Shown piece by piece: positions 4,794 through 27,086 of a stretch of DNA of 64,000 nucleotides (position 1 is the first letter of the stretch; each line of letters begins with the position of its first letter). This DNA is from Candidatus Doudnabacteria bacterium RIFCSPHIGHO2_02_FULL_42_25 (GTDB lineage: Bacteria; Patescibacteriota; Doudnabacteria; UBA920; O2-02-FULL-48-8). A program made the position numbers and the translations under genes. The stretch is from NCBI GenBank assembly GCA_001777665.1, contig MFEQ01000006.1, positions 213,442 to 277,441 of the forward strand, read 5' to 3'. The notes beneath the pieces were generated by a model. That model did no database searches. It had not been told where the DNA came from and saw nothing but the letters and a program-made list of their open reading frames with translations.

Positions 4794-4794
4794 T

Positions 4795-6231: not shown

Positions 6232-6234
6232 TTG

Positions 6235-7323: not shown

Positions 7324-7337
7324 CGGCCTTTTAGAAT

Positions 7338-9448: not shown

Positions 9449-9464
9449 GTTTATTTTTTATTCG

Positions 9465-9887: not shown

Positions 9888-9898
9888 ATTGTTCTACC

Positions 9899-13200: not shown

Positions 13201-16200
13201 GCATCTTTATACAGATTTTTGATCTTGCCTTTTGGATCAATTACGGTAAATTTCTGATCATTGTAAATATTACTTGAAGTACCTACCGCATTCGTAACAC
13301 TAACCACTCTTTGCATCGGATCATAGGTGTGCAGAGTTAAAAGGTTAGGGTTTGTATTAACTGATGTTTTACTAAACCCATTTGAAAAGTATGGCAAAGA
13401 TTGTTTATAAACCTGTCCGAGGTTGTTATAAACCGTATCAGCGACGGAGTAAACATTGTTATCTTCTGTCTCTTTCCTGATTTGCACAGGTCTATTCAAA
13501 CCATCATAGTAGGTATAAGTATCGACAGCGTTAGAATTGTCTAAATAATCAGTTTTCTTCGAACTCACGGCACCCGGAGTATCAGTATATACATACTCTG
13601 TTTTCACTACTATGGTTTGCGGATCAGTTAAATCCGGCTGTTTCTCGGCAATGACGCGATCCAGGCCATCATAAACAGATTGAAACACTCGAGAATTAAT
13701 ATCAGTAATCTGCTTGGGTTTGCCTAATGAGTAATCGTAGACATACGAGGTGCTTTGGTTTAAAGCATTCGTAACTGTTGCTGGATAAAGATTATTTGTA
13801 TCGTAAACATAACTGGTGGCTTTACCTCGCGGATCAATATCAGTAGTTATTAATCCAAATGTTGGATCATAATTTTTTTGAATACTTACATAACTCGAAC
13901 CTGCTTTCCAATTTTCCTGTTGAGTGAGATTCCCCCTAGAATCATAGCTGTACTTAGTTTCCTTGACCTTATTCGAACTTTGGTCAACTGTGGTTTCTTG
14001 ACTTGGGTACGCATAAATGTAGTACGTTGCATTAGCGACATAAGAAAAGTCCGTTGTAAATTTATCAGTTCCTGTATCGGTATATGCTCCATCATCGCTG
14101 CCAGTAACTTCTCCCCATTCTATCTTTTGACTCAGATTGCCAGTGGTGTTGCTGTAAGTATATTCTTCTGTCTTGTCTTTGTGATCCGCATCACCATCGT
14201 AAGTAAGTTCTGTGGTTCTTACAAGTTTAACAAAATTCCTACTATTACCAAGATCATATTTATCCCATTTGTTGACTGTTTTAAGATAAATATTACTGCT
14301 TCCGTCTTTCATTTCTGATCTGTATAGTTTACCAACTTTGGAGATGTGATCACTATATTCACCATTACTACTATCAGTAGTGTTACCTTGATGGTAATAC
14401 GTTTTAGTGACTTGACCAGCCGCATTAGTTTTATTGATTATATTAAATCCGGCAAATTGTCTATCAAATGAAGTGTTAAAGTAATAACTGCCGCTCTCAT
14501 AACTATATGAAGTTGTGTAAGTGGAATTTACTTTGTCGTCGTTAGTAAGTTGATAGACAGTGTCTAAATTAATTCTTGCACTCGGATTTAATAGAGTTGA
14601 GCCACTAACATACCTAGCACTGGCTTTGTAAATAACAGCTGTCGTTCCAGCACTTGGATATGTAATTTTATTTGTAAGGTCAGCTTTGTTTCTATTATTA
14701 AATCTCGTGCTGCTCACAACACCATTACTACTATAAGCGCGGATGAGATCAACCATCCCATCAGCGTTTATATCCACTGCTTGAGTGCCGGTCTCTCCGT
14801 TACTACTGGTGACAAATTCCTCAACAGCGCCCCAATTAGTTCCTGTTTGCGTCCATCCATAACCGTTGTTATAGTAGCTTACTGGCGTCCCACCGCCAAT
14901 AAATTTTGATAAATCTATCAATCCATCACCATTGAAATCAAATGGACGTACTCCTTCATCAACATTGCTTCTAAATACCATTGGTGGAGCCCAAGAAGTA
15001 TTATTTGAAGTCCAACCTGCACCATTACCCAGATACGCTTCTTTGTACTGAGTTTGTCCATTTTGCCATCCACGCAACAAATCGGCTAATCCATCATTAT
15101 TGATATCTATAATAAATACACCTAATTTCAAATCAACTGGCACTATCCAATTTACCGAAGTCCAACCTGCACCATTATTAAGATATACATCGTCAACAAT
15201 AGTGCCATTATTATCATAACCTCTAATTACATCCACTAGTCCGTCACCATTTAAATCAGCCAATTGTGACGTGTATGAATCACCCGAGGATGAAGGACCA
15301 AAGGGTATCGGTGAATACCAAGTGGAATTATCTGCTGACCAGCCACTTCCAGTATTTAAATATGCTTTATTGACACCAACTGTGGCCTGCAGAATATCAT
15401 TAAGTCCGTCTCCGTTCACGTCAGCTATTCGAACACCCTGGTCTACTCCTGAACTATCAAAAAACTGAATTGGAGGTTGATAACTAGCACTTGTTGTCCA
15501 AGTACCATCTTGGTCGTTTAGATAGGCTGTTTTTGTGCTCCCATATGAATGGAGAATATCAGGGTAGGCATCACCATTAACATCAGCAATATATACTTCA
15601 CTGAAAGGGACTGGATACGTCCAATTAGTATCGTTAGAGTTATAGTTAGAGCTCCCATTATTGTTTGTTATTTGGTAATCAAAATCTGTTACAGGGAGTG
15701 AAACCGTGTTTGAACTTTCGTCTTGACCAGTTTCTGTAATAGTATTTAAGACATATCTTCGTCCATTATCTGCTGCTGTATATGCTAAAGCCCATTTCCT
15801 GGCCCAAGTATCACTAATTTTTGCTTGAATCTCATAAATTCTGTAGCTAGTAGTCACACTAAACCCAGGCTTATAACTAATTGTTGAATCTGATCTAGAT
15901 TCTTTTAAAAATTCGATGACAAAGATACCATCAGTTGAACCATTTCCTGTATATGTAATCTTGTATGGATAAATCTGGCCAGCATCCTTTGTATATTCGT
16001 ATTTGATATAGTTTTCATTTCTATCTCTAACTTCTTGAAGCATCCATTTGTAGATATTACTTCCGCTATCTTGTCTTTCCGCAGCATTTGTTCCAAATTT
16101 ATATGCAGTTCCTTTCTTATCTTTTACTGTCCAAACATTGTCAGTTAAATCATAGGTTAAAAATTCACCATTATCGACTTTGGAACCCCAAGATGAACCA

Positions 16201-16802
16201 CTAATTAAATAAAGTTCTCCCGTAAATGATGAATTGAAATAATTATCTGTATATAGCTTATCAGCTCCTTTGCGATTAATTCGTTCGATATACGGAATAT
16301 TTACAGACCAACCATAAGAAAATACACTTCCTTCATCGTTAGACTGACTGCTGTATACCAATGCAACATCTGGTTGAAGCCCGTTTCGGCCAGGAGGAAT
16401 AGTTAATGGGTATTGATAATTTAATGAACCATTCACTTCACTAACTTGTGGGAGTTTTTGGCCTGCAACAGTGTTCTTACCTGAGTCAGGACCAGGACTC
16501 GAGGCCAAAAGATTAGTTGCTTCAGGATCGGAATCTTTGCCTTTATCCTTATCTTTGATAGGTTTGGGATCTTTATTATTTTCTGAAAAATCTTTCTCAT
16601 CCTTAAGCTGCTTATCCTCATTAGTTTCTGATTTTTTATTTTGTTCGGGTTCTGGTTCCGAAGATATCTCAGATGCGGATTGATCTACTTCCTTAATGGG
16701 TTCAATCGGCAACTCGGATTCTGCAGCGAAAACGGGAGTAAAGGGCGTAATGAGAATAAAGAATGCCACCACTATCGCAACCAGACTTTTGGAGTTAGTC
16801 AT
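10233..16802 (-). CDS. RHS/YD-repeat polymorphic toxin (2189 aa) with signal peptide, FG-GAP-like DxNGDG repeats, YD repeats, RHS core and a variable C-terminal toxin domain
   Basis: Signal peptide MTNSKSLVAIVVAFFILITPF. Repeats DVNGDGLNDIL and DLNGDGLVDVI. Many YxYDxxGN(L/I) YD repeats. RHS core ...GRFISQDPVF...NPLAYIDPDGH, followed by an approx 205-aa tail. Confidence 0.85.
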   Translation of the reverse strand: MTNSKSLVAIVVAFFILITPFTPVFAAESELPIEPIKEVDQSASEISSEPEPEQNKKSETNEDKQLKDEKDFSENNKDPKPIKDKDKGKDSDPEATNLLASSPGPDSGKNTVAGQKLPQVSEVNGSLNYQYPLTIPPGRNGLQPDVALVYSSQSNDEGSVFSYGWSVNIPYIERINRKGADKLYTDNYFNSSFTGELYLISGSSWGSKVDNGEFLTYDLTDNVWTVKDKKGTAYKFGTNAAERQDSGSNIYKWMLQEVRDRNENYIKYEYTKDAGQIYPYKITYTGNGSTDGIFVIEFLKESRSDSTISYKPGFSVTTSYRIYEIQAKISDTWARKWALAYTAADNGRRYVLNTITETGQDESSNTVSLPVTDFDYQITNNNGSSNYNSNDTNWTYPVPFSEVYIADVNGDAYPDILHSYGSTKTAYLNDQDGTWTTSASYQPPIQFFDSSGVDQGVRIADVNGDGLNDILQATVGVNKAYLNTGSGWSADNSTWYSPIPFGPSSSGDSYTSQLADLNGDGLVDVIRGYDNNGTIVDDVYLNNGAGWTSVNWIVPVDLKLGVFIIDINNDGLADLLRGWQNGQTQYKEAYLGNGAGWTSNNTSWAPPMVFRSNVDEGVRPFDFNGDGLIDLSKFIGGGTPVSYYNNGYGWTQTGTNWGAVEEFVTSSNGETGTQAVDINADGMVDLIRAYSSNGVVSSTRFNNRNKADLTNKITYPSAGTTAVIYKASARYVSGSTLLNPSARINLDTVYQLTNDDKVNSTYTTSYSYESGSYYFNTSFDRQFAGFNIINKTNAAGQVTKTYYHQGNTTDSSNGEYSDHISKVGKLYRSEMKDGSSNIYLKTVNKWDKYDLGNSRNFVKLVRTTELTYDGDADHKDKTEEYTYSNTTGNLSQKIEWGEVTGSDDGAYTDTGTDKFTTDFSYVANATYYIYAYPSQETTVDQSSNKVKETKYSYDSRGNLTQQENWKAGSSYVSIQKNYDPTFGLITTDIDPRGKATSYVYDTNNLYPATVTNALNQSTSYVYDYSLGKPKQITDINSRVFQSVYDGLDRVIAEKQPDLTDPQTIVVKTEYVYTDTPGAVSSKKTDYLDNSNAVDTYTYYDGLNRPVQIRKETEDNNVYSVADTVYNNLGQVYKQSLPYFSNGFSKTSVNTNPNLLTLHTYDPMQRVVSVTNAVGTSSNIYNDQKFTVIDPKGKIKNLYKDAYGNLVKVEEFNSGNTYTTHYDYNYLGNLTKITDASGNIRNFSYDGLGRRIGSEDLHNPTDTTFGLWSYIYDDSSNLISSTNPNNQQVEYTYDDINRRLTENYIGQAGTEVTYNYDSGIDGIGRLTSVQSSGANTDYLYNPLGGLKQEAKTISSTSYQTDYNYDRQGNLLEVTNPDNSKIKYAYNQGGQLETIKRKEATDGSFVNVVSDLDYGPHGQVTYQAYANGPVTSNIYDSTKLYRLTNKNTTAANGLKLQNLSYTYDPNGNITRIVDGSDTNSSKTVDYTYDDLNRLMSTAATNVAAGQSTYGQTYSYDAIGNILTRAETIGINPTTIYTYAYDGSSGSRYANPHAVTSISDGTNTTTFSYDSNGNMITEGNKNYVYDYNNRLIQASLAGGSNTTTTFSVQSGDGNVYKNYSTWSGVHDATSGSGQSYTSTTMPVQAGKTNNSTYRIERAFLAFNTSALPDNTSIVDAKLKVYVHGKTNPDNDGDDWVTVVQGSQASPTSLVLNDYDNAGAITNPTEGIDTSERKDITNVSTNAYLTLNLNNTGKGWISKTGNTLLALREGHDVINSSYTGGKGGNQLTLRSSEYSGTAFDPVLEVTYANQTTINYAYDHEGQRVRSSNGSISTDYPTGFYNTDGTVPTKHIVSPTTQTVATVKGVGASASVYSVHTDHLTGSNVVTNNTGLQEELMDYFPFGGIRLDQKQGTFSEQRKFAGHEYDVDTGLSYMNARYYNSSIGRFISQDPVFIGLGSGQIEVLSDPQLLNSYSYARNNPLAYIDPDGHLPRSLVNAVNFLDKYNPVHYLYGESFDDIAEGLFDGDWGRVGRGVKDTTLTTANVIATSLEIGMTAGTIYTMGAGVAATKVATTGRAKEINNLIRTLDKVLDTKSKSSVIVPLRSTTKTSAFDRAAEHAIIKNHYPGLSKQEISNIAKKTFESFDIKVNIKGIKKYYYDSKNNNLFINNPKQPTLFQPKNGLEYLKDTIKKDINR
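10236..10852 (-). other. variable C-terminal toxin tip of the RHS protein (after the DPDGH motif), unknown family, glycine-zipper-like segment
   Basis: Sequence downstream of the PLAYIDPDGH cleavage/demarcation motif. Contains GMTAGTIYTMGAGVAATKVATTG. AT-richer than the body of the gene. Confidence 0.5.
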
Positions 16803-16822
16803 AAATAAAATATTAATTATGC

Positions 16823-16863
16823 ACTAACGCTAGCATTGATAGGATTGTTGTCAATATTTGACA
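16823..16863 (-). promoter_or_regulatory. conserved promoter-like element (TTGACA-N17-TAGCGT on minus strand) upstream of the RHS gene; second copy at 26988..27027
   Basis: A roughly 40-bp block with about 75% identity to 26988..27027. Both copies lie 20-45 bp upstream of the start codon of a giant secreted-protein gene. Confidence 0.5.
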
Positions 16864-16890
16864 GTAAAATCTATATAGTATAGATTGAAG

Positions 16891-16938
16891 AAATGCTAGC
16901 ATTTTTAATACTGTTGGAGGTCTCCAACACTAGCATTT
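16891..16938 (+). promoter_or_regulatory. palindromic operator-like region upstream of the trmB-family gene
   Basis: AATGCTAGCATT 12-bp palindrome, TGTTGGAG-GT-CTCCAACA inverted repeat and a second CTAGCATTT copy, all ending at the start codon. Confidence 0.4.
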
Positions 16939-17745
16939 ATGAATATGACTGATACTTTACTCAAACAACTAAAAGCCGGAGGGTTGTCTGAAAAAGAGGC
17001 CAAAATCTACCTAGCCCTACTGGAACTTGAGGTTGCTACCGTGTTCGAAGTAGCTAAAACTTCAGGAGTTAATCGCAGTTCAGCTTACGTCGTACTCGAA
17101 GGACTAAAAAAGAAGGGTCTGGTGGGGATTTCTGATGACCAAAAAGTGCGCAAGTATATTGCAGCATCCCCCGATACTCTTCTTCATTCAGCCAAATCAG
17201 CTGCAAAAAAACAAGAGGATATAAAGTCAGGGATCGAATCCATAATCCCAGAACTTCGAGCATTACACAAAGCAACAAAAAGAAGACCTATCGTCAAAGT
17301 CTTTGAAGGTGAAAATGGTGCAAAAGAAGTATATTGGCAACTGTTCTCATCAACTGACAAAATACTAAGAACTTATGCCAATCCAATTAACATTTTTAAA
17401 CGTATTCCGGACTTTGAAATTCATGATAAAGAAAGGGCAAAAAGAGGCATTAAAATGTTTGCTATAAATCCAGCATCAAACGAAACTCTTAAATTCCTCA
17501 AAGATATACGGCCTCATAAACCTTACGAGCAAGCACTGATTCCAGAAAACAAATTTAGATTTACATCAGATATGGGAATATTCGGAGATAAAATTGCTTT
17601 AGTCTCTCCTGTAGATAATTTTGGGATTATTATTGAAAGTAAGGAAATTGCGGACATGCTTAAAAATAGTTTCGATTTGGCTTGGGAGGAAGCCAAACGA
17701 TTAGATAAAATAATACGAAAAAAATACAAAATACCTAAAGACTAA
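16939..17745 (+). CDS. TrmB-family transcriptional regulator
   Basis: N-terminal wHTH LSEKEAKIYLALLELEVATVFEVAKTSGVNRSSAYVVLEGLKKKGLV typical of TrmB. Approx 270 aa with a C-terminal effector domain. Confidence 0.65.
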   Translation: MNMTDTLLKQLKAGGLSEKEAKIYLALLELEVATVFEVAKTSGVNRSSAYVVLEGLKKKGLVGISDDQKVRKYIAASPDTLLHSAKSAAKKQEDIKSGIESIIPELRALHKATKRRPIVKVFEGENGAKEVYWQLFSSTDKILRTYANPINIFKRIPDFEIHDKERAKRGIKMFAINPASNETLKFLKDIRPHKPYEQALIPENKFRFTSDMGIFGDKIALVSPVDNFGIIIESKEIADMLKNSFDLAWEEAKRLDKIIRKKYKIPKD

Positions 17746-17746
17746 A

Positions 17747-18430
17747 TTATTCTATTAATTTTTCGAGTCGGTCGATTTCAGCTTGGTACAAGCTTTTTCT
17801 CAAAGGAAAAAGTTCAATTGCTTTTTGCCAATACCCTATCGCGTCCTTTAAATTACGAGTCTCTTCTAAAAATTGGGCGTAGCGAGTAACGATATCAATC
17901 TCAGTTTTATCGGGTACCGCTGCTAATGCGTCTTGAAAAATTTTATCGAGTTGCTCACTGTTAGCATTGAAATATTCTTTCATCAGAGTAATATACTTGA
18001 TCCAAATATCAGGAGTGCCGGCTCCTAACTCTAGTGCTTTCAAAATATGTTCTTTCGCTGATTCATAATCCTGCATTTCCAATTCCACCTGATACAGCAG
18101 AGTGTAAACTCCAGCTTGGTTTTCGACATTATATCTTTCTGCTTTTAGATAGTCCTCTTTGGCTTTGCCTAACTGCCCTAAGCCATATTTCTGATTACCA
18201 ATAACAATATATGCTTCGTATTTCTCAAGATCTGTATTGGCTTCTGTTAATTTTCTCTCGCCTTCTGCGAGTCGATCCAGATAGATTTTACGTTGCTCAT
18301 CTGTAAGCGTCCGGTTAACTTCATTTACGAAATTGGGTTTGTCGGCACGATCTTGAATCATTGTATAGGCAAAAAATCCGACGAATAGTAGAACCACCGC
18401 GATGATTCCTATTTTTACATTTCTTTCCAT
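17747..18430 (-). CDS. TPR-repeat protein with N-terminal membrane anchor
   Basis: N-terminal TM IGIIAVVLLFVGFFAYTMI followed by TPR-like helical repeats (AxxxYxxA patterns). Confidence 0.55.
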   Translation of the reverse strand: MERNVKIGIIAVVLLFVGFFAYTMIQDRADKPNFVNEVNRTLTDEQRKIYLDRLAEGERKLTEANTDLEKYEAYIVIGNQKYGLGQLGKAKEDYLKAERYNVENQAGVYTLLYQVELEMQDYESAKEHILKALELGAGTPDIWIKYITLMKEYFNANSEQLDKIFQDALAAVPDKTEIDIVTRYAQFLEETRNLKDAIGYWQKAIELFPLRKSLYQAEIDRLEKLIE

Positions 18431-18457
18431 ATTTTATAAATTAATTGCCAAATTATT

Positions 18458-18506
18458 TTATCAAATCAAAATCGTCCCGACAAGAGTCGGGACGATTTTG
18501 CTAGAA
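18458..18506 (-). terminator. rho-independent (bidirectional-type) terminator after the 1190-aa gene
   Basis: ATCGTCCCGAC-aaga-GTCGGGACGAT hairpin flanked by A- and T-tracts. Adjacent perfect 18-bp palindrome TAGCTTTCTAGAAAGCTA at 18515..18532. Confidence 0.6.
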
Positions 18507-18536
18507 TTTATAGCTTTCTAGAAAGCTAACCCACGA

Positions 18537-21500
18537 TTAAGGCTTTACTAGAGTCCAACTGTTAAGCGAGAGATTCTTAACTAAGAAGTCTCCTTGCCAG
18601 TCGGTCGTACCTGTATCGTGAGATAAGGCTGAAGCATCGCTCCAGACGAAGCTATGACCATCGCCTAATGTAGCATCTCCTGAGTTATCATTAGTCAGGA
18701 AAGCGGCAGAAGCTGCGTGAGTAGTGGTGTTCCTCTGAAGGTCAGCTAGGATGTTATCATTGGAAGCCAAAGTCCCACCGACAGTTGCTTTTACTTCATA
18801 GGTCCTAGCACCGCTTATTAGCTCTTCTACATCATCATCGGCTTTAGTTCCGATAGTGATCAATAAGTCACAAGCTGTATCTAGTTCCTCGCAGTTTGTA
18901 GCAGTATCTGTACCAGCACCGTCACCGTCAGCAGAGATAAATGTCTCAACTGCTGTGACCACTGCGCCAGTGTCAGCATTATGGATAGCAACGCTAGCCA
19001 AGGTCGGATCAGTACCAGCGCCATCAGCAGCGCCACCGGTCTTAGCTATCTCTATTAAGACTTCCTTCCAAGCTACTGCGCCGGTACCATTTGAAGATAC
19101 CGTAAACTTGGCAAGGGTCTGCGTGCCTCCGGTCAAAGTTCCAGTCGGCAATTCTACACGAGAGATCAACGGAACAGACTTGTAGGCATACATGGTATTT
19201 CCAGGTCTATCTGTACCATTAGTCGTTACTGCACCTGACGATACCGAAGTGTACTTAACACTATCCAAGGTAGCTGTGATATCGGAATCAGTTGTGCCAG
19301 CGTTTGGACCGATAGTAGCCATGACCAATTCGACGCCTAGGACGATACTACCGTTTGCCGGGACGTTCACTGAAAATCCAGTGAAGAGCATGGAAGTGGC
19401 AGCTGGCATCGTGGCCAATGTCGCTCCAGTTGACGCATTCTTCAAGACGACTTGAGAAACTGCTGTTGCGGTTGCAAGATTGACATCAACTTCGGTCAGG
19501 TTGACTGAATCATAAGTTGAAGCAACTTTGAACCTGGCAACTTCCACGGTCCCTGAATCATCAACCAACATAGAAGCTGCAGATGCAGCATCCAAGGAAG
19601 TGGCAAATGTACCAGCAACCTCGATAATTGTCTGACCATCTTTATCGGCTTCAGAATCAGCTATCCCTGACTGTACAGTTGTCCCTGTCGAAGTCAAGTC
19701 GGTTTTTACTGAATCGTTATCGGTAATGTTTGCAGCAGCACCAATGTCACCGTAAAGCTCAATAGTCAGAGAGCTATTCATCATCAAGGTGTAATTGACT
19801 GACCAATCATTATCAGCGGCGGTTGGAGTAGACTTGATAGAAGTCGTATTCGAACCGTACTTGAGATATAGGTTAGATAGATCAGATTCATTGAAGGTTG
19901 CACCAGTAACTTCATCAATGTCCAATGAGAAGGTGGTGATATTGATGTCTTCGGTTGCAGAGCCGGTTAAGGTCCAAGCACCGAGTTTGTAGTTGGTTTG
20001 AGGAGCGACTGTGGACTGGTTTGGATATGAGGCCAAAGAAGCCAAAGTCGAAGCACCCTCAGCAACTGTCAGTTGGTTTGCAGCAATGTCAGAACCTGTT
20101 GGGACATCGAATGAGCCCAATGATACTTGTCTGGTTGCGTTACTTCCATCGTTATCGATTACGTAAGCCTGAATGGTGTCAGTAGCAACCAATTCAGCGC
20201 CACCTGTCTCTTCATCATAGATATCAGAGTACAGTTCGACTGTTGCCGGTGTACCTGGATTGACGATGAAGTTGGTGGTGAAGTTGGCGGCAGTAGCAGC
20301 AGCGCCAGCGGCAACCAAGCCTTTGGTTGAGCCGACTTGTCCACCATTGACGAAGAGCTTACCGTTGCGGAGCGTATATTCGCTATCAGTACCCGAGGTG
20401 TCGATGGCGACATCGAGGTTTTCAACCTTAATTGGTTCACCATACGCGGTAAAGGTCCATTTGCCAAGTTTTACGGACGAGGCATTGTTGGTCACATTTC
20501 CTGCTGGTGAATCAGTGGTCTTGGTTACAGTCATAGTACCGTTGTTGATAGCAACACCGTCTGAATCAGCTGGGAAGGTTCCGGTTGCACCAACGTTGAC
20601 GAGGTATTGTGAATCCACGACATCAACATCGGCTTTGTTGCGGAGCGACATCTCGAGTGTTCGAGAGGAACCGCCAATAACATCAGCAATCACTTTGATA
20701 ACCGGCGAACCAGTCTTTAGTAATTTGCTGAAACCAGAGAAGGTCACATAACCGTTAGCATCAATGTTTTGAGTTGATGCAACTTGGACACCATCAACTA
20801 ACACTCGGAAGTTCTTTACGTCGCTGTTCACGATGTTGTTGATTTGGCGCAAAGCCAATCTGGACATTGTTACATCGCGGACTCCAACTGTGAAGGTTGA
20901 TTGCCAGACAGTAATGTCAGTGCCTGGATCAGAAGCACCAGCATCAGTAGGAGCGCCTACTGCTACTGTAGCTAATTCAGCAGCTGCAGAATTGTGGAGA
21001 TTACCAACGACTGGGAGTCCACCTACGGTACCCGATGAAAGGGCAACTGCAGTTAGATTAACTCCAAGTGTTTGACCTGAGTAAGATCCATCGTCAAGAT
21101 CAGCTCGAGCAGTAATGGTTCGAGAACCTGAGACTGTGAAGAGTCCAGATGGGTTAGCAAAGGTTAAATTGTTGGAAGAGAAGGTACCAGCATCAGTCAA
21201 TCGAGTCGCACCGTCAAAGAGATAGAGGTTTGAGACCATAGCATCAGTCGAAACACCAGTTCTCATCAAGGTGAGAGACGTAACTGTGCCTGAACCTGTA
21301 AACACGAAGTTAGCTAATGGAGCAATAGATTGTGAGTAATTACCCGCACCACCATCAGTTGAATCAATAATTAATGTTGATGAAGCAGGACCAGCTAAGG
21401 AAACATTAAGAGAACCTGAAACTGGAGGAGGAGTTGTTCCACCGCCGGTGCAGGCTGCGCGCATGGAAACTGCACCTTGATCGGCCATAGCCAAATCATA

Positions 21501-22109
21501 GGAGTTAGCTCCCACGACTTTTTCAAAACCAATACCGTAAGAAGTGAATACTGCGCCTGATGGGTAACCCATTCGGCCAGTAGCGGTCATGAGCCAAACG
21601 GCTCCGCCGGTGATAACTCGAGTTCCAGCTGGGTGAGCGATAGCGCTCGAATCAATGTTGGAACCGGTTGGAAGATCAGAGAAGGTGTTTACTGGAGCGA
21701 CTTGGATGTTTGAGAAACTGTATCCGAGTCCGGTAAAGACACTACCAGTTGTAAATCCTCTCTTTTGTCCGTTGGCTACGAGGTAGACCAAAGGATCGTT
21801 TGGACCCATTACGAGGGTGCCATCAGCGTAGGTCATAATTGGTCCTACTGGCAAAGCTACGTCTTCAGCTGTGGCTGCAACAACTTGTCCGAAGTTGTAA
21901 CCATGGCTCATAAAGACTTCAGCTGACGTGAATCCACGTCGTGTACCGCCGGTGATCATCCAGACGATACCGCCAGAGAGTACCAAACAACCATCGCTAT
22001 GAACAGCAGCGGAAGCGAGTTGTGGCAAGGCACCAGAGGCAGCCCAGAGTAAACTGGAAGCAGCCAAACCGGAAGCCACGGCTTTCCGTGCTTTTAAAGA
22101 TAATTGCAT
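18537..22109 (-). CDS. large secreted surface protein (1190 aa), Thr/Ser/Gly/Ala-rich with probable Ig-like/beta-rich repeats; triplicated approx 50-aa N-terminal repeat
   Basis: Signal peptide MQLSLKARKAVASGLAASSLLWAASGALPQLASA. Three repeats of the G..W..T.G.RRGF..S..VF...GY.F type. Low-complexity T/S/G/A-rich body. Confidence 0.6.
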   Translation of the reverse strand: MQLSLKARKAVASGLAASSLLWAASGALPQLASAAVHSDGCLVLSGGIVWMITGGTRRGFTSAEVFMSHGYNFGQVVAATAEDVALPVGPIMTYADGTLVMGPNDPLVYLVANGQKRGFTTGSVFTGLGYSFSNIQVAPVNTFSDLPTGSNIDSSAIAHPAGTRVITGGAVWLMTATGRMGYPSGAVFTSYGIGFEKVVGANSYDLAMADQGAVSMRAACTGGGTTPPPVSGSLNVSLAGPASSTLIIDSTDGGAGNYSQSIAPLANFVFTGSGTVTSLTLMRTGVSTDAMVSNLYLFDGATRLTDAGTFSSNNLTFANPSGLFTVSGSRTITARADLDDGSYSGQTLGVNLTAVALSSGTVGGLPVVGNLHNSAAAELATVAVGAPTDAGASDPGTDITVWQSTFTVGVRDVTMSRLALRQINNIVNSDVKNFRVLVDGVQVASTQNIDANGYVTFSGFSKLLKTGSPVIKVIADVIGGSSRTLEMSLRNKADVDVVDSQYLVNVGATGTFPADSDGVAINNGTMTVTKTTDSPAGNVTNNASSVKLGKWTFTAYGEPIKVENLDVAIDTSGTDSEYTLRNGKLFVNGGQVGSTKGLVAAGAAATAANFTTNFIVNPGTPATVELYSDIYDEETGGAELVATDTIQAYVIDNDGSNATRQVSLGSFDVPTGSDIAANQLTVAEGASTLASLASYPNQSTVAPQTNYKLGAWTLTGSATEDINITTFSLDIDEVTGATFNESDLSNLYLKYGSNTTSIKSTPTAADNDWSVNYTLMMNSSLTIELYGDIGAAANITDNDSVKTDLTSTGTTVQSGIADSEADKDGQTIIEVAGTFATSLDAASAASMLVDDSGTVEVARFKVASTYDSVNLTEVDVNLATATAVSQVVLKNASTGATLATMPAATSMLFTGFSVNVPANGSIVLGVELVMATIGPNAGTTDSDITATLDSVKYTSVSSGAVTTNGTDRPGNTMYAYKSVPLISRVELPTGTLTGGTQTLAKFTVSSNGTGAVAWKEVLIEIAKTGGAADGAGTDPTLASVAIHNADTGAVVTAVETFISADGDGAGTDTATNCEELDTACDLLITIGTKADDDVEELISGARTYEVKATVGGTLASNDNILADLQRNTTTHAASAAFLTNDNSGDATLGDGHSFVWSDASALSHDTGTTDWQGDFLVKNLSLNSWTLVKP

Positions 22110-22558
22110 TGTATTCTCCTGTTTATAGCAAAGCTTCGCGGAAAGGATTAATTATTCATATGAGACAATCAATCTTATTCCGGAACAATCCTATAAACAT
22201 TGTTTAATTTTTGGAACTAAGCATTAACAGACAAAAAAACTAAGATCGACCAGCAAAAAGCTCAAAGCTATTTGCCAAGACTTAATTCCAATTTATAAGA
22301 CGACCGCCTAATGGGTATGTTACAACCCATTAAACCCTCATTAAAATACTGTGGACGAATCAATAACAACCCCAAATTAAAACTCCCACAACTTAAGTTT
22401 TGTGGAGGTCACTAAGGATTAATAATTTCTTTGTTCACGAAGGATTTCATTGAGTAACAGCATTATGGAGTAACTTTATGTTTTTGTCAAGCTAAAAAAT
22501 AACTAATTTTATTGTATATAAACTTGAACCTGCTTATATAGTATGATATGATAGTTAT

Positions 22559-23323
22559 ATGACCAACAGCAATTTAAAACTTAAAGCAATAAATTTGAGG
22601 CAGGAAGGTTGGTCCTATAATATGATTTCTGAAAAAATAGGAGTAGCTAAAAGTACCCTTAGTAATTGGCTAGCGGAAATACCCTATAACCCCAGCGCAG
22701 AAGCAATCAAAAGAATTAAACAAGGACCTGCCAAATCTGCTGTTTTGAGACACAATATAAAGCTCCAAAACATAAAAGATATAAAAGCTCAGGCAGCTGC
22801 AGAATTAAAAAAAATTACTAAACGCGATCTTTGGATGATGGGGATTGGGTTATATATCGGTGAAGGATCTAAGGTTCATGAATATACAAGAATCGTGAAT
22901 TCTGATCCGAACATTGTTAAGCTTGCAATTAGATGGTTCCGGGAAATTTGTAAAGTACCATTAAAAAATTTTTTACTAACTGTCCATATTTATCCCAATA
23001 TTTCCGTATTGGAAGCAGTTGACTACTGGTCAACAACAACAGGTGTTCCTAAACACCAATTCGGGCAAACGCAAATCGACAAAAGGTTAAATAAAACAGC
23101 AAAAAAACAGAATCTGTTGCCTTTTGGCACAATTCATATTAGTATTAGAAGCTGTGGAGACCCTAATTTCGGTGTTGCTCTCCACAGAAAGATTATGGGC
23201 TGGATTGAAGCAGCTTATCAAGTGCGCGGGCATCGTATAGTGGCAATACCTCAGGTTTCCAACCTGATGCCGGGAGTTCGATTCTCCCTGCCCGCTCCAG
23301 AAAAGCAAAGAAGATTATTTTAA
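22559..23323 (+). CDS. HTH-domain protein with LAGLIDADG-like motif (putative homing-endonuclease-like); 3' end reads through tRNA-Gly
   Basis: N-terminal HTH GWSYNMISEKIGVAKSTLSNWL. The motif LWMMGIGLYIGEGSK resembles LAGLIDADG. The last approx 30 codons are the tRNA-Gly sequence. Confidence 0.4.
   Translation: MTNSNLKLKAINLRQEGWSYNMISEKIGVAKSTLSNWLAEIPYNPSAEAIKRIKQGPAKSAVLRHNIKLQNIKDIKAQAAAELKKITKRDLWMMGIGLYIGEGSKVHEYTRIVNSDPNIVKLAIRWFREICKVPLKNFLLTVHIYPNISVLEAVDYWSTTTGVPKHQFGQTQIDKRLNKTAKKQNLLPFGTIHISIRSCGDPNFGVALHRKIMGWIEAAYQVRGHRIVAIPQVSNLMPGVRFSLPAPEKQRRLF
23226..23299 (+). tRNA. tRNA-Gly (anticodon UCC)
   Basis: Manual fold: acceptor GCGGGCA/TGCCCGC, D-arm GTAT-AGTGGCA-ATAC, anticodon stem TCAGG/CCTGA with loop TTTCCAA, T-arm GGGAG-TTCGATT-CTCCC, discriminator U, CCA encoded. 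Confidence 0.85.
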
Positions 23324-23339
23324 AGCCCCTGAGGGCTTT

Positions 23340-23930
23340 TTAGTTACCCACAAGTTTTCCAGAGGCAAAAACTTCGATCAAAGCGGCGATGAAAAGTACT
23401 AATGCTATCGCCGGAAGACAAACGATCGCGCGAATTAAATTATTTTTCAGGACCTCTCCCCTATGGCCTTTTGATTCTTGCCGTAACCATTCGGTTCCGA
23501 ACCGAAGACCGAGGGCGGCGGCAATCAAAACCGCTGGCAACTCAAAAATTCCATGCGGAACTAACCCAGTGACGATAATCAGCACTCCGGAAAGAACATT
23601 TGTCAGGGAAAACATGGAAACAATCACAAAGCCAATCAAAAAACCATTCACAACCACTACCACGAATGGCCCCAAGCCCAAAATCAACCCCCCAAACAAA
23701 GCGATTAAAGACGCGATAATGTTTTGGGAAAATATTTGGAGAGCAAAAGCAAAATTCAAATCTGGATTCTCACCAAACCTATCAGCGAACTCCTTTAGTA
23801 TCACCTGCAATAAGTCGGGTTTGATAAAAAAAGTGATACCACCAAAAATCGCCGCTAATAAAAACCAGTTAGTAACTAGTTTCAACCAGTGGCGATTTTC
23901 GGAAAACAAATTGCGATAAAATTGTATCAT
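23340..23930 (-). CDS. SpoIIM/DUF95-family membrane protein
   Basis: Motif IFSQNIIASLIALFGGLILGLGPFVVVVVNGFLIG typical of the stage II sporulation protein M family. Multi-TM. Confidence 0.55.
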   Translation of the reverse strand: MIQFYRNLFSENRHWLKLVTNWFLLAAIFGGITFFIKPDLLQVILKEFADRFGENPDLNFAFALQIFSQNIIASLIALFGGLILGLGPFVVVVVNGFLIGFVIVSMFSLTNVLSGVLIIVTGLVPHGIFELPAVLIAAALGLRFGTEWLRQESKGHRGEVLKNNLIRAIVCLPAIALVLFIAALIEVFASGKLVGN

Positions 23931-23940
23931 TTATATTGCT

Positions 23941-24066
23941 AGCGAGGATTAAATTTTTGGACGCTTTGCGTATTTCTTCAGAAATCGCAACGCGAGTAAA
24001 AATCTACTTTCAAGTACATAACAAACTGCAGATTTTTAAGTTCACAAAAATTTCAATCCGAGCGTT
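23941..24066. repeat. approx 126-bp direct repeat copy A (about 90% identical to 32206..32331), immediately 3' of tRNA-Pro; contains imperfect palindrome TTGCGTATTTC-N3-GAAATCGCAA
   Basis: Long near-identical block, with a 60-bp core ggacgctttgcgtatttc...caaactgcagattttta that is identical in both copies. Confidence 0.8.
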
Positions 24067-24069
24067 TCC

Positions 24070-24143
24070 TGGTCGGGGTGCTGGGAATTGAACCCAGTCT
24101 ATCTGCTCCCAAAGCAGACGTACTACCGGTATACTACACCCCG
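24070..24143 (-). tRNA. tRNA-Pro (anticodon UGG)
   Basis: Manual fold of the reverse complement: acceptor CGGGGTG/CACCCCG, anticodon stem TCTGC/GCAGA with loop TTTGGGA (G37), T-arm CTGGG-TTCAATT-CCCAG, discriminator A, CCA encoded. Confidence 0.85.
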
Positions 24144-24225
24144 TCGTATAAATTCACTTTGGCATTATATTCGAATTTCACTTAGAACTCAAGTATCCAG
24201 TTCTGTCCATACTAAAAAATTAGTA

Positions 24226-24256
24226 AAAAATGTGTAATTACACATTTTTTACGACT
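24226..24256. repeat. palindrome AAAAATGTGTAATTACACATTTTT plus TACGACT; downstream copy of the 24-bp direct repeat flanking the PaaX_C-like gene (other copy 24948..24971)
   Basis: Perfect 24-bp palindrome. The 24-mer tgtaattacacattttttacgact is identical at both gene ends. Confidence 0.8.
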
Positions 24257-24932
24257 AGATAATACTCTTATCTTTGAAGAATTGGTTGAGCTTTTCTTCA
24301 TCATCAGCATCTAATTTGGCAGCTTCGGCTACTGTCACAAAGTTTTCGATTTCATAATACACTGCGACGAACTCAATCTGATCAGTTGGTTTATAGGGAT
24401 AAACCCAAACTGTCCTTTGCAGCGGATAAAAATTCATTAACTTAAGCTTTTCTCGAAATAAATCTGCCCGTCTCCGATAAGGATTTGAAGGAATATCAGC
24501 CAGTACAAACCACCAATGCTTGCGCAAACGCGAGGTTTGCGGGATAGTTAGATTTTCAAAATTTAATCGTCTTACTTTATCCTCTCCTTTTTTCGTAATC
24601 TTCATAACATAGTCCTCCCCTTCTCTCATCAATTGAATATAACCATATCTTTTCAAATAATAAAAAGACTTAACAATATCCTTTTGACGTTTTTCAAATC
24701 GCTGTTTCCTGTCATAGCCGCTATAACCATAACGTTGGATTTTTCCTAACGCACTTAGTAGATTAGGGGCGATGACTGCTATAGCTACTGTTCCGGCGAG
24801 AATACCTGTCGCGAGCACAACCTCTGCCGCAGTTTTCAACATCGCTACTTGCTGATCGCTAAGCTTGGGTTTCTTGGAGGCAGTGCTCTTTCGTATCAAC
24901 TGCGATATATTTATATCCTGCTTAATTCGCAT
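24255..24932 (-). CDS. membrane-anchored PaaX_C/Cas2-fold domain protein (paralog 1 of 3), putative regulator
   Basis: N-terminal TM helix, basic wHTH-like middle region, C-terminal RKHWWFVLADIPS...FREKL...FYPLQRTVWVYPY matching the PaaX C-terminal/Cas2-like signature. 60% identical to 56669..57346. Confidence 0.5.
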   Translation of the reverse strand: MRIKQDINISQLIRKSTASKKPKLSDQQVAMLKTAAEVVLATGILAGTVAIAVIAPNLLSALGKIQRYGYSGYDRKQRFEKRQKDIVKSFYYLKRYGYIQLMREGEDYVMKITKKGEDKVRRLNFENLTIPQTSRLRKHWWFVLADIPSNPYRRRADLFREKLKLMNFYPLQRTVWVYPYKPTDQIEFVAVYYEIENFVTVAEAAKLDADDEEKLNQFFKDKSII

Positions 24933-24947
24933 TATTCGTATCTTGGA

Positions 24948-24971
24948 TGTAATTACACATTTTTTACGACT
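24948..24971. repeat. upstream copy of the 24-bp repeat (TGTAATTACA core) flanking the PaaX_C-like gene
   Basis: Identical 24-mer to 24233..24256. Confidence 0.8.
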
Positions 24972-25001
24972 AAAAAGTTATTACTTGATAATTTATTTGA
25001 A

Positions 25002-25289
25002 CTACTTGTTCGTTCGGACTGCGTCTTTCAGGTTTTTGCCGGCGCGGAATTTTGGGACTCGAGTGGCAGGGATTTGGATTTTTTCTCCCGGATTTTGGGG
25101 ATTGACTCCCATGCGTGATGATCGATCCATCACGACGAAAGATCCAAACCCCGAAATATTGACCTCCTGGCCATTTTTCAATGATTCTGTGATGACATCA
25201 ACGAAACCATGCAGAATTTTTTCTGCTTCTTGTTTATTCGTTAAATTTAACTTTGCCGCCAGCGCATCTATTAGTTCTTGCTTGTTCAT
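25002..25289 (-). CDS. HU/IHF-family DNA-binding protein
   Basis: MNKQELIDALA...GFGSFVVMDRSSRMGVNPQNPGEKIQIPATRVPKFRAGKNLKD is the HU signature. RBS AAGGAG. The start codon overlaps the upstream stop as ATGA. Confidence 0.8.
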   Translation of the reverse strand: MNKQELIDALAAKLNLTNKQEAEKILHGFVDVITESLKNGQEVNISGFGSFVVMDRSSRMGVNPQNPGEKIQIPATRVPKFRAGKNLKDAVRTNK

Positions 25290-26983
25290 TTTAGCAACTC
25301 CTTTCGGTTCATTAATCTGATTAAAATATAGCAAATTATTGCACCTAAGACAAAACCCACGGCAAACCATGGCCAGATGGGATTTTGTTTGGTAATAACC
25401 AGAGGTGTTGGATTTGATTCCTGCACTGCTGCCACTATCCCACTACTGATCTCTGGTTGAGATTCTGTAATTTCTTCTTCTATTGCTGGAATATCCAAAT
25501 ACTCTTCTTCAGCAGCTTCTTCTTCCACCTCCACGATCTCGACTTTTTCAGCAATTTGATTGTCCTGACCTGGTGTCGCCATGATAGACCATTCAAACTC
25601 ATCATCTGTTCTGCTATATGATTGCGCTTTTGGCGCATCTTCGTATTTGACCAGATCCACTATTTCCCCGTTGGGATTGATCAGAGATACTTTCTCCTCG
25701 CCATAATTGTTGAGCGCGATTTTACTTTCAGACTTCAAGATAAAAATATATCCGTGCGGTAAAATTAAAAGTTCAGGCAATTTATATTTCCGGCTACTAT
25801 CCGCTATCACCCAATCTTTAAGAACGACTTCGGCATCGGAATCATTATGCAATTCGATAAACTCCTCTTCTCCCTTCGCAGGAGAAGGATATATTTCGCT
25901 GATTCGGATGTCTTCGCTATAAGTTTCTACAGGTTCTTCCTCGAGATTTAAACCCACGACTTGACCCTCACTAGCATCTGTATAATTAAACGAGTCAATC
26001 ATGATTCGATTAGAGTCAAACAATCGGATGGTTTCTTCACCACTGTTATTCAGAGCAAATTTGCCAGTCGGAATCAAAATCTGGACTGAAACTTGTGCGG
26101 CTAAAATTTGTGCTGGCAGTTTATAATGATTTTTCCCAATCTCGGTATCTATCTCACCATCATCCAAAATCGAATTCATCAGGTCAATCGTCTGGTTGGT
26201 GGTATTGGTTAACTCGACCCACTCGTATCCAGAATCAGATCCTTTTGGGTTTGGTAATGCCTGGGTAATTTTGATAGCACCTGGAACGATAATCACAGGC
26301 GATGCTACCGGTCCTCCTCCGCTCTGAGTCGGAGTTGGCGGAGGAGGTGAAGGTAGAGGTGTCGGCTCTGGATCAGGTTCTTCCACTGGCGGTGGTAGAG
26401 GTTGGGGTGGCGGAGTCGTACTCGGAACAGTTAGAGTATTGCGAGGATTAGGGGTACTAATTATAAAATCCGCAGCATTGTTATCAGTGTCTTCGTTGCG
26501 AATCAGAACTTCGCCCATAGCTGGATTGATCGGAAATACGGAACCTTCAACGAATGCATTCGAAGCCGATCCCCAACCCACACTATCAACAATTGTCCCG
26601 GTATCGTTGCTTCCCAGACGAAGCGCTATGCCATTATTATCCGCAATCGAGGCCGAAGTTGTCGCATCAGGAACTATTCCAATATCTACAAAATCTGCAT
26701 TCGCCCAAAGATAGTAGCCACCCGCGGGCACAATCGCAGATTCAGTCCAGGATTTGATAGATGTGTCCGAAGTTCCCGTCTCTGTGCGTTTGACCAGCCT
26801 CATACCCATCAAATCAATATCGCTCCCGGTGGGATTATGAATTTCGATAAAATCGTTAGTTGTTTTCCCCGCCCCACCTGTTGTTTGGACCTGACTGATC
26901 ACCAAATGGTCGACAGTGACAGCAGAAGCAGTTCTCGGAAACAAAAAAGTAAAAGCCCCGATCAATAAAATTATTTTTTTCAT
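25286..26983 (-). CDS. lamin-tail-domain (LTD) surface protein with signal peptide and C-terminal TM anchor
   Basis: Three LTD-like modules (NDFIEIHNPTGSDIDLMGMRL, YEWVELTNTTNQTIDL, EEFIELHNDSDAEVVLKDW). Pro-rich linker. C-terminal helix IWPWFAVGFVLGAIICYILI. Confidence 0.6.
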   Translation of the reverse strand: MKKIILLIGAFTFLFPRTASAVTVDHLVISQVQTTGGAGKTTNDFIEIHNPTGSDIDLMGMRLVKRTETGTSDTSIKSWTESAIVPAGGYYLWANADFVDIGIVPDATTSASIADNNGIALRLGSNDTGTIVDSVGWGSASNAFVEGSVFPINPAMGEVLIRNEDTDNNAADFIISTPNPRNTLTVPSTTPPPQPLPPPVEEPDPEPTPLPSPPPPTPTQSGGGPVASPVIIVPGAIKITQALPNPKGSDSGYEWVELTNTTNQTIDLMNSILDDGEIDTEIGKNHYKLPAQILAAQVSVQILIPTGKFALNNSGEETIRLFDSNRIMIDSFNYTDASEGQVVGLNLEEEPVETYSEDIRISEIYPSPAKGEEEFIELHNDSDAEVVLKDWVIADSSRKYKLPELLILPHGYIFILKSESKIALNNYGEEKVSLINPNGEIVDLVKYEDAPKAQSYSRTDDEFEWSIMATPGQDNQIAEKVEIVEVEEEAAEEEYLDIPAIEEEITESQPEISSGIVAAVQESNPTPLVITKQNPIWPWFAVGFVLGAIICYILIRLMNRKELLK

Positions 26984-26987
26984 GCCC

Positions 26988-27027
26988 TAACGCTAGCATT
27001 GGACAACTTGTTGTCAACATTAAACGC
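26988..27027 (-). promoter_or_regulatory. second copy of the conserved promoter-like element (TTGACA-N16/17-TAGCGT) upstream of the LTD protein gene
   Basis: ctaacgctagcattg...ttgttgtcaa block shared with 16823..16863. Confidence 0.5.
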
Positions 27028-27086
27028 ATAAAGACAAATTAAAAACAGCCGAAAATTTAAGGCTGTTATATCTAGCTGACAAAATT

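What the first reader, a model, noticed from the sequence alone, without database searches (positions are those of the whole stretch)
16823..27027. Shared promoter-like element upstream of the two giant secreted-protein genes (RHS and LTD protein)
The 40-bp blocks at 16823..16863 and 26988..27027 are about 75% identical. On the coding (minus) strand both read TTGACA-N16/17-TAGCGT with a palindromic GCTAGC in the -10 region, 20-45 bp before the ATG. Only these two genes in the window have it. That suggests a dedicated regulon for cell-surface and antagonism proteins. The divergently transcribed TrmB-family regulator next to the RHS gene is a candidate controller, and its own upstream region carries related CTAGCATT palindromes.
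Basis: partly seen in the sequence, partly recalled or inferred. Interest (0 to 1): 0.5.

Follow-up and report, generated by a model that had tools for sequence, protein, structure and literature searches.

The report
Shared promoter with TrmB-type operator half-site
Two secreted-protein genes of an uncultured Doudnabacteria (CPR) bacterium share an ordinary sigma-70-type promoter. Its -35 box is half of an apparently undescribed operator kept next to a TrmB-like regulator in 21 distinct related CPR loci, and its -10 half carries a second, lineage-specific palindrome of unknown function.

Summary
On the minus strand, 16854..16819 and 27017..26982 both read TTGACAACAA-N6-CAATGCTAGCGTTAG-N-GCAT: 29 specified bases identical, spacer 0/6 identical, no other copy in about 83 kb.

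The blocks parse as a complete sigma-70 core promoter: -35, 16-nt spacer, TGn, -10 TAGCGT, 5-nt discriminator, CAT start. That predicts a leaderless LTD mRNA.

The neighbouring TrmB-family regulator, which has a TrmBL2-like fold, is a credible controller, but not through the GCTAGC palindromes. Its recognition helix is invariant in aligned CPR orthologues. Twenty-one distinct orthologous loci carry two other palindromes upstream: Site I (TTGTTG-N11-CAACAA) and, in most of them, Site II (TGTTG-N8-YAACA). TTGACAACAA is one half of Site I.

An RHS gene about 130 kb from the regulator gene in another Doudnabacteria genome has the same site pair, and an RHS-tip toxin gene sits divergent to a third orthologue. 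Other divergent genes are cytosolic, so the regulon is not dedicated to surface proteins.

LTD orthologues lack the element, and the LTD copy keeps only a half-site. The GCTAGC block is lineage-specific and unresolved; it may be a second operator. A genome-wide scan was not possible.

The parts
16845..16854 (-). Box A of the RHS promoter: TTGACAACAA. It holds the -35 hexamer TTGACA (16854..16849) and is also the left half of Site I.
16819..16838 (-). Box B of the RHS promoter: CAATGCTAGCGTTAGTGCAT. Parsed as extended -10 TGC (16835..16833), -10 TAGCGT (16832..16827), discriminator TAGTG (16826..16822) and start element CAT. Predicted +1 is A16820, giving an 18-nt leader with no Shine-Dalgarno sequence. 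It contains the near-palindrome AATGCTAGCGTT (16837..16826).
   Evidence: Element geometry follows PMC12641261. The TSS is inferred, not measured.
16843..16867 (+). Site I, the predicted operator of the TrmB-like regulator: GATTGTTGTCAATATTTGACAGTAA. It consists of two back-to-back -35 hexamers, one for the RHS promoter (minus strand) and one for the regulator's distal promoter (plus strand).
   Evidence: It scores 32.2 bits with a matrix built only from 21 orthologous loci. It is the top hit in the window, and shuffles reached at most 18.6 bits.
16858..16886 (+). Candidate distal promoter of the regulator gene: TTGACA-N17-TAGATT.
   Evidence: 10 of 12 consensus positions.
16891..16904 (.). 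Perfect 14-bp palindrome AAATGCTAGCATTT, the Box B core. It lies 23 bp from the centre of Site II. It could also act as an extended -10 element (TGCTAGCAT) on either strand.
16912..16929 (.). Site II, the second predicted operator of the TrmB-like regulator: TGTTGGAGGTCTCCAACA (TGTTG-N8-CAACA).
   Evidence: The same TGTTG-N8-YAACA palindrome lies near the regulator start codon in most orthologous loci.
16926..16937 (-). Third copy of the Box B core, AATGCTAGTGTT on the minus strand. It overlaps the right arm of Site II and abuts the regulator's start codon.
16939..17745 (+). TrmB-family regulator gene. The protein has a winged-helix domain, a long helix and a C-terminal domain, in a TrmBL2-like architecture. 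The true start may be the second ATG at 16945.
   Evidence: Pfam PF01978, E 8e-17. AlphaFold model with pLDDT 91. Foldseek match to TrmBL2, E 8e-14 over the full length. The deposited protein is 266 aa.
10233..16802 (-). RHS / SpvB / FG-GAP polymorphic-toxin gene (2189 aa, with a signal peptide). It is driven by the RHS promoter.
27008..27017 (-). Box A of the LTD promoter: TTGACAACAA (-35 hexamer at 27017..27012). It is a half-site only; the full 25-mer at 27006-27030 scores 14.0 bits.
26982..27001 (-). Box B of the LTD promoter: CAATGCTAGCGTTAGGGCAT. The -10 TAGCGT is at 26995..26990, the discriminator is TAGGG and the start element is CAT. Predicted +1 is A26983, the A of the start codon, so the mRNA would be leaderless.
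25286..26983 (-). Gene for a lamin-tail-domain protein (565 aa; signal peptide and C-terminal transmembrane segment). It is the first gene of the conserved LTD-HU-PaaX_M-SpoIIM row.
27044..27067 (-). Terminator-like hairpin after nusB, followed by a T-run. It leaves only about 60 nt for the LTD promoter.
   Evidence: The reading as a terminator is my inference.

Best explanation
Each block is a complete sigma-70-type core promoter: -35 TTGACA, a 16-nt spacer, TGn, -10 TAGCGT, a 5-nt discriminator and a CAT start element.

The RHS copy is the conserved promoter that faces away from the TrmB-like regulator gene. Its -35 box lies inside Site I (TTGTTGTCAAT-N-ATTGACAACAA). Site I is a 23-bp palindrome made of two back-to-back -35 hexamers, centred near -37 of both divergent promoters.

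The inferred mechanism is as follows. A dimer of the TrmBL2-like regulator on Site I blocks sigma region 4 at both promoters. It may be bridged to Site II in the regulator's leader. An unknown effector releases it.

The LTD promoter is a lineage-specific copy of about -38..+22 of this promoter. It kept the proximal half-site and all core elements, and it starts transcription at the A of the ATG.

The GCTAGC-centred palindrome (AATGCTAGCRTT) overlaps the -10 element in both promoters and recurs twice in the regulator's leader. It is most likely the site of a second, unidentified dimeric factor, which would make these two-input promoters.

Shown: the sequence identity, the conservation of Sites I and II with orthologous regulators, the promoter geometry, and the fold of the regulator.

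Inferred: binding, repression, the transcription start sites, leaderless translation, the copying event, and the second factor.
For: - Exact shared blocks, with 0 matches in shuffles.
- Local alignment score 53 against 17.5 +/- 2.6 for shuffles.
- The recognition helix NRSSAYVVLE is invariant in 17 orthologues at 48-75% identity.
- Site I is present upstream of the regulator gene in 21 distinct orthologous loci with at least 45% identity, and rare in the more distant relatives below about 42%.
- The window's Site I scores 32.2 bits with a matrix that excludes the window.
- TAnnnT lies exactly 16 nt after TTGACA in 15 of 21 loci, against at most 4 at any other offset.
- Site II (TGTTG-N8-YAACA) is present in most loci, and the window's copy is perfect.
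- The RHS gene in L091, about 130 kb from the regulator gene in the same genome as L003, has Site I (27.4 bits) oriented toward it and a second palindrome (18.7 bits) 56 bp away.
- Extra Site I copies lie in front of other operons in L005, L006, L008, L014 and L033.
- The gene divergent from the regulator in L030 is a PT-TG/RHS-tip toxin.
- LTD orthologues in conserved synteny lack both boxes.
- A -10-like hexamer ends 6-7 nt before the ATG in 8 of 48 genes, so leaderless starts are plausible in this genome.
- The regulator's fold matches TrmBL2 over its full length, E 8e-14.
- A half-palindrome suffices for Pyrococcus furiosus TrmB at mdxE (PMC4158304).
- The AATGCTAG sites all fall in two intergenic regions totalling about 240 nt.
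Against: - No binding, TSS or expression data exist.
- The LTD site is only a half-site, and its 14 bits lie within the range of shuffle maxima.
- The two copies may be related by a recent duplication, so identity of Box B between them need not mean selection.
- Box B can be fully parsed into ordinary core-promoter elements, so a second factor is not required to explain the two main copies.
- Box B has no counterpart in any other locus, so conservation cannot be tested.
- No close relative exists: the nearest regulator is 76% identical.
- A site centred at -37 suggests repression, but activation is not excluded.
- RHS genes in L092 and L093 have no site.
Confidence: 0.6

Rival explanations
1. 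This is plain promoter duplication without shared regulation. A segment of about 60 nt of the RHS promoter was copied in front of the LTD gene. Box B is only the extended -10, -10, discriminator and start elements. The half-site at the LTD gene is a passenger, and the two extra GCTAGC copies are weak extended -10 elements.
For: The alignment extends from 3 nt upstream of TTGACA to about +22. LTD orthologues lack the element. Box B parses fully into core elements. All four cores fit TGnTAnnnT. The LTD site scores only 14 bits.
Against: The spacer differs at 6 of 6 positions while 29 flanking positions are identical. That pattern fits constraint better than drift, though a small indel or replacement could also produce it. 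TAGCGT is a poor -10 in a region of about 36% G+C, and the same unusual core recurs in non-homologous contexts within a 136-nt region.
Confidence: 0.25
2. One reading: the GCTAGC/CTAGCATT palindromes are the operator of the TrmB-family regulator.
For: Three copies cluster in the regulator/RHS intergenic region and one lies at the LTD promoter. Three of the four lie 23-23.5 bp from the centre of a TTGTTG-type site, counting the LTD half-site as one (my measurement).
Against: They are absent from every orthologous regulator locus, although the recognition helix is invariant. Those loci instead conserve Sites I and II.
Confidence: 0.07
3. The promoter depends on an ECF-type sigma factor. The blocks read TGACAAC-N17-CGTTA, resembling the AAC / CGT consensus of envelope-stress ECF promoters (recalled from memory, not checked).
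For: Both copies have AAC and CGT 17 nt apart, and the targets are secreted proteins.
Against: Orthologous divergent promoters keep TTGACA-N16-TAnnnT without CGT. The other two GCTAGC copies have CAT or TGT instead of CGT. No sigma-factor gene appears among the Pfam-annotated genes around the window.
Confidence: 0.06
4. The similarity is due to chance.
For: None found.
Against: 0 matches in 100 shuffles. The alignment lies about 13 standard deviations above shuffles.
Confidence: 0.01

Closest known systems
Divergent, autoregulated repressor/target promoter pairs in which the operator overlaps the -35 boxes (general bacterial pattern, from my own knowledge)
   Same: The regulator gene is transcribed divergently from its target. 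A palindromic operator covers the -35 hexamers of both promoters, and a second operator lies in the regulator's own leader.
   Different: Here the operator is itself built from two back-to-back TTGACA hexamers. The organism is an uncultured CPR bacterium. Nothing has been tested experimentally.
Archaeal TrmB family (TrmB, TrmBL1/Tgr, TrmBL2), reviewed in PMC4158304
   Same: The protein has the PF01978 winged-helix domain. Its full-length fold matches TrmBL2 and TrmB. The operators are palindromic and overlap core promoter elements, and autoregulation is known in the family. P. furiosus TrmB can use a half-palindrome at mdxE.
   Different: The known motifs are TACTN3AGTA, TATCAC-N5-GTGATA and TACTN7-8GAGTA, whereas here they are TTGTTG-N11-CAACAA and TGTTG-N8-YAACA. 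The host is bacterial with a sigma-70 promoter. Pfam found no match to the sugar-binding effector domain PF11495. The targets are not sugar genes.
Leaderless mRNAs (known mainly from Actinobacteria, Deinococcus and archaea; from my own knowledge)
   Same: The -10 hexamer ends 6 nt before the ATG of the LTD gene, so +1 coincides with the A of the ATG. Several other genes in the window show the same geometry.
   Different: This is predicted from sequence only.

Membership tests
Sigma-70-type promoter | -35 hexamer close to TTGACA | tested here: met
   TTGACA is exact in both copies.
Sigma-70-type promoter | 16-18 nt spacer followed by a -10 hexamer TAnnnT | tested here: met
   A 16-nt spacer is followed by TAGCGT, preceded by TGC. 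The same geometry occurs in 15 of 21 orthologous loci.
Sigma-70-type promoter | Transcription start about 7 nt after the -10, at a Y-R-Y start element | not testable with these tools
   The sequence fits: CAT follows 5 nt after the -10, the geometry described in PMC12641261. No TSS data are available.
TrmB family regulator | N-terminal TrmB winged-helix DNA-binding domain (PF01978) | tested here: met
   E 7.8e-17, 61 bits against a cut-off of 25.6.
TrmB family regulator | TrmB-type C-terminal effector-binding domain (PF11495) | tested here: inconclusive
   Pfam gave no hit at E <= 0.01. The model does match TrmBL2 over its full length (E 8e-14) and the TrmB effector domain 2f5t (E 3e-4).
TrmB family regulator | Binds one of the known TrmB motifs (TACTN3AGTA, TGM, TACTN7-8GAGTA) | tested here: not met
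   The conserved sites are TTGTTG-N11-CAACAA and TGTTG-N8-YAACA. The known motifs are listed in PMC4158304.
Operator of the adjacent regulator (Sites I and II) | Co-occurs with orthologous regulators and is absent with distant relatives | tested here: met
   Site I was found in 21 distinct loci with regulators at least 45% identical. Among the distant relatives only isolated weak regex matches and one strong matrix hit, L043 at 29.1 bits, were seen.
Operator of the adjacent regulator (Sites I and II) | Physical binding by the protein | not testable with these tools
   This needs a gel-shift, footprinting or ChIP experiment.
ECF sigma promoter | AAC in the -35 and CGT in the -10, conserved among regulon members and orthologues | tested here: not met
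   Both are present in the two window copies. CGT is absent from orthologous divergent promoters and from the other GCTAGC copies.
Regulon dedicated to surface and antagonism proteins | The element is enriched upstream of such genes and absent elsewhere | tested here: inconclusive
   RHS-type targets occur in three lineages (window, L091, L030), and secreted proteins in L003, L005 and L009. Cytosolic targets occur too. The 1190-aa secreted protein in the window and the RHS genes in L092 and L093 lack the site. A whole-genome scan was not possible.
RHS polymorphic toxin | RHS/YD repeats, SpvB and FG-GAP N-terminal region, variable C-terminal tip followed by small genes | tested here: met
   Pfam domains. 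Three small ORFs follow at 9089-10228.

The most novel reading that the evidence does not exclude
A TrmBL2-like regulator found across many CPR lineages, with an undescribed operator (TTGTTG-N11-CAACAA), acts as a conserved switch. Different lineages have repeatedly wired it to polymorphic-toxin (RHS) and cell-surface genes. In this lineage it works together with a second, unknown factor that binds AATGCTAGCATT over the -10 element. That would give two-input control of antagonism and surface proteins in an organism with very few regulators.
Probability: 0.25. Interest if true: 0.55.

Novelty: new member of a known kind. Interest (0 to 1): 0.35.

Why it matters
Almost nothing is known about transcription control in CPR bacteria, which cannot be grown alone and encode few regulators. 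This analysis gives a concrete, testable regulator-operator pair that is conserved from Doudnabacteria to Kaiserbacteria and Azambacteria. It also links that pair to RHS toxin genes in at least two genomes. A gel-shift assay with one recombinant protein and a 25-bp duplex would test it. If the pair holds, it gives a handle on when these epibionts deploy toxins and surface proteins. The element itself, a promoter with an operator, is an ordinary kind of thing.

Tried and rejected
- Genome-wide scan. I scanned genome contigs for CAATGCTAGCGTTAGNGCA and got a single chance hit in a Rhodanobacteraceae MAG.
- Flanks. The two 10-kb flank extensions of the source contig gave no further composite copies; one isolated TTGACAAC and one isolated AATGCTAG turned up in L094.
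- Strain comparison. L001 and L002 are identical apart from one 49-bp indel, so there is no polymorphism to use.
- Viral contigs. Box B gave no hits. The Site I pattern gave two hits; the one I placed against the ORF list (L096) lies inside a phage coding region, and I judged both irrelevant.
- Rfam. No RNA family matches either promoter.
- Literature. No paper combines TrmB with CPR or Patescibacteria.
- IHF, SOS-box and restriction-site (NheI GCTAGC) readings of Box B. I dropped IHF and SOS after checking the consensus by eye. GCTAGC occurs 12 times in 64 kb and is not avoided.
- RNA hairpin reading of Box B. I rejected it because the block lies upstream of the predicted start, and the palindrome leaves no loop.
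- Helical phasing between Sites I and II. The spacings are 53.5-55.5 bp in 7 loci and 65.5 bp to more than 130 bp in the others, with no clear phase.

Full report
**Source.** The window comes from Candidatus Doudnabacteria bacterium GCA_001780055.1, contig MFFA01000003.1 (344,688 bp). Pfam confirms the three genes: an RHS/SpvB/FG-GAP protein at 10233..16802(-), 2189 aa; a TrmB-family regulator at 16939..17745(+); and a lamin-tail-domain (LTD) protein at 25286..26983(-), 565 aa and therefore not giant.

**Observation.** On the minus strand, 16854..16819 and 27017..26982 both match TTGACAACAA-N6-CAATGCTAGCGTTAG-N-GCAT with no mismatch. No shuffle produced a match. The N6 spacer differs at all six positions.
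- A local alignment scores 53, against 17.5 +/- 2.6 for shuffles. With gaps it runs from 3 nt upstream of TTGACA to about +22.
- TTGACAAC and the 14-mer AATGCTAGCGTTAG each occur exactly twice in the window.
- There is no further composite copy in the extra ~19 kb of the same contig.
- The 8-mer AATGCTAG occurs at four sites, all in these two intergenic regions. They are the two promoters, the perfect palindrome AAATGCTAGCATTT at 16891-16904, and AACACTAGCATT at 16926-16937.

**The -35 block.** The regulator has hundreds of CPR homologues at 46-76% identity. In 17 aligned orthologues the recognition helix NRSSAYVVLE is invariant, so they should all read the same DNA. I fetched regulator loci from metagenomes and assemblies.

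In 21 distinct loci with regulators at least 45% identical, the upstream region carries TTGTTGTCAAT-N-ATTGACAACAA-like palindromes (Site I). Nearer the start codon, most of them carry TGTTG-N8-YAACA (Site II). The more distant relatives mostly lack both.

None of these loci carries GCTAGC palindromes.

A weight matrix built from the 21 foreign Site I copies scores the window's 16843-16867 at 32.2 bits. That is the best hit in the window; shuffles reached at most 18.6 bits. TTGACAACAA is the reverse complement of the left half of Site I.

On the strand divergent from the regulator gene, TAnnnT follows the TTGACA after exactly 16 nt in 15 of 21 loci, against at most 4 at any other offset. The RHS promoter is therefore the conserved divergent promoter of this regulator family, and Site I consists of two back-to-back -35 hexamers. 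The window's Site II is TGTTGGAGGTCTCCAACA at 16912-16929.

**Regulon content.** The genes divergent from orthologous regulators are heterogeneous:
- unknown secreted proteins or lipoproteins (L003, L005, L009);
- a membrane protein (L006);
- GGACT (L007, L008), adenylate-kinase-like (L011), SLOG (L012) and GRDP-like (L013, L020, L021) proteins;
- GreA C-terminal proteins (L017, L033);
- a PT-TG/RHS-tip toxin (L030).

An RHS gene (P0302) lies about 130 kb from the regulator gene in genome GCA_964474825.1. It has a 27.4-bit Site I oriented toward it and a second palindrome 56 bp away. Two other RHS loci have no site.

So RHS-type toxins recur as targets, but the regulon is not dedicated to surface proteins.

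**The LTD copy.** The gene row nusB-LTD-HU-PaaX_M(-SpoIIM) is conserved in three other Doudnabacteria, with the PaaX_M gene upstream of LTD in one of them (L089). Their LTD upstream regions have neither box and no Site I. In the window only the promoter-proximal half of Site I is present (14.0 bits). The alignment with the RHS promoter begins near the centre of the palindrome. The simplest history is that about -38..+22 of the RHS promoter was copied in front of the LTD gene in this lineage. Control by the regulator there is possible: P. furiosus TrmB uses a half-palindrome at mdxE (PMC4158304). It is not shown.

**The -10 block.** It parses completely into core promoter elements: TGC (extended -10), TAGCGT (-10), TAGnG (5-nt discriminator) and CAT (a Y-R-Y start element, as defined in PMC12641261).
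- Predicted +1 is A16820 for the RHS gene, giving an 18-nt leader with no Shine-Dalgarno sequence.
- Predicted +1 is A26983 for the LTD gene, which is the A of its ATG, so the mRNA would be leaderless.
- A -10-like hexamer ends 6-7 nt before the ATG in 8 of 48 genes in the window, so leaderless starts look common here.

The core AATGCTAGCRTT is also a near-perfect palindrome. It recurs twice in the regulator's leader in non-homologous contexts. Three of the four copies lie 23-23.5 bp from the centre of a TTGTTG-type site, counting the LTD half-site (my measurement). TAGCGT is an odd -10 for an AT-rich intergenic region. I therefore favour a second, unidentified dimeric factor, at moderate confidence. 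I cannot exclude that the block is only core promoter carried along by the duplication. No close relative exists in which conservation could be tested.

**The regulator.** The AlphaFold model (pLDDT 91) matches archaeal TrmBL2 over its full length (E 8e-14), TrmB (E 1e-9) and the TrmB effector domain (E 3e-4). Pfam detects only the DNA-binding domain. The known TrmB motifs differ from Sites I and II. I found no literature on TrmB-like regulators in CPR.

**Mechanism (inferred).** The regulator binds Site I, centred near -37 of both divergent promoters, and Site II in its own leader. This occludes the -35 hexamers and autoregulates the regulator gene. An unknown ligand relieves repression. The RHS promoter is under this control. 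The LTD promoter shares the core promoter and Box B, and possibly weak regulator binding.

**Verdict.** The repeat is real and is correctly read as a promoter. The regulator link is right in spirit but was attached to the wrong motif. The kind of element is ordinary. The predicted operator for the CPR TrmBL2-like regulator family is, as far as I could find, undescribed.

Noticed in passing
window 2065..8885 (-); L003, L005, L006: A gene cluster travels with the TrmB-like regulator in other Doudnabacteria: HisKA_7TM sensor kinase, nitroreductase/TM1586-like protein, an unknown protein of about 480 aa, ThiF, and an aromatic amino-acid lyase (with ELFV dehydrogenase and a receiver domain in the other genomes). 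In the window the RHS cassette sits between the regulator and this cluster, as if it had been inserted behind the divergent promoter. In L006 a second Site I lies in front of the operon.
   Followed up: partly
window 9089..10228 (-): Three small ORFs lie directly after the RHS gene (109, 140 and 119 aa; the last has a Cys_rich_CPCC domain). They are candidate immunity or orphan genes.
   Followed up: no
window 22559, 43560, 52690, 52737, 57346 (gene starts): Several genes have a TATAAT-like hexamer ending 6-7 nt before the ATG and no Shine-Dalgarno sequence. Overall 8 of 48 genes fit. This suggests frequent leaderless mRNAs in this CPR genome. LTD orthologue L088 shows the same geometry (TACAAT + 6 nt + ATG).
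   Followed up: partly
L001 11991-12040 against L002 (window about 18.9-19.0 kb, inside 18537..22109): Two assemblies of the same organism are identical over 20 kb except for a 49-bp indel inside the 1190-aa secreted-protein gene, which changes the called product to 1078 aa. That gene also has a higher G+C content (0.44-0.48) than its neighbours (0.36-0.39).
   Followed up: no
window 23226..23296 (+) and 24073..24143 (-): Two tRNA genes. The first overlaps the 3' end of the 254-aa HTH_3-like ORF at 22559..23323, so the end of that ORF is probably not coding.
   Followed up: no
window 24255..24932 (-) and 56669..57346 (-): Two paralogous 225-aa proteins with a PaaX_M (Cas2-like) domain. The one at 24255..24932 has an apparent N-terminal membrane helix; the other was not inspected. 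One lies in the conserved nusB-LTD-HU-PaaX_M-SpoIIM row and is a possible membrane-tethered DNA-binding protein. I considered it only speculatively as a binder of Box B.
   Followed up: no
P0137-P0160; L094 12783-19364; L095 1-700: Many LTD orthologues carry an OB-fold nucleic-acid-binding domain (PF01336). Type IV pilus genes (T2SSE, T2SSF, PilM) and dprA lie near the window. This hints that the LTD protein has a role in binding or taking up extracellular DNA.
   Followed up: no
L089 about 3905-3935: A perfect 14-bp palindrome, TGACCGATCGGTCA, overlaps the -35 and spacer region of the LTD promoter in another Doudnabacteria lineage. Different lineages seem to have placed different palindromes on this promoter.
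   Followed up: no
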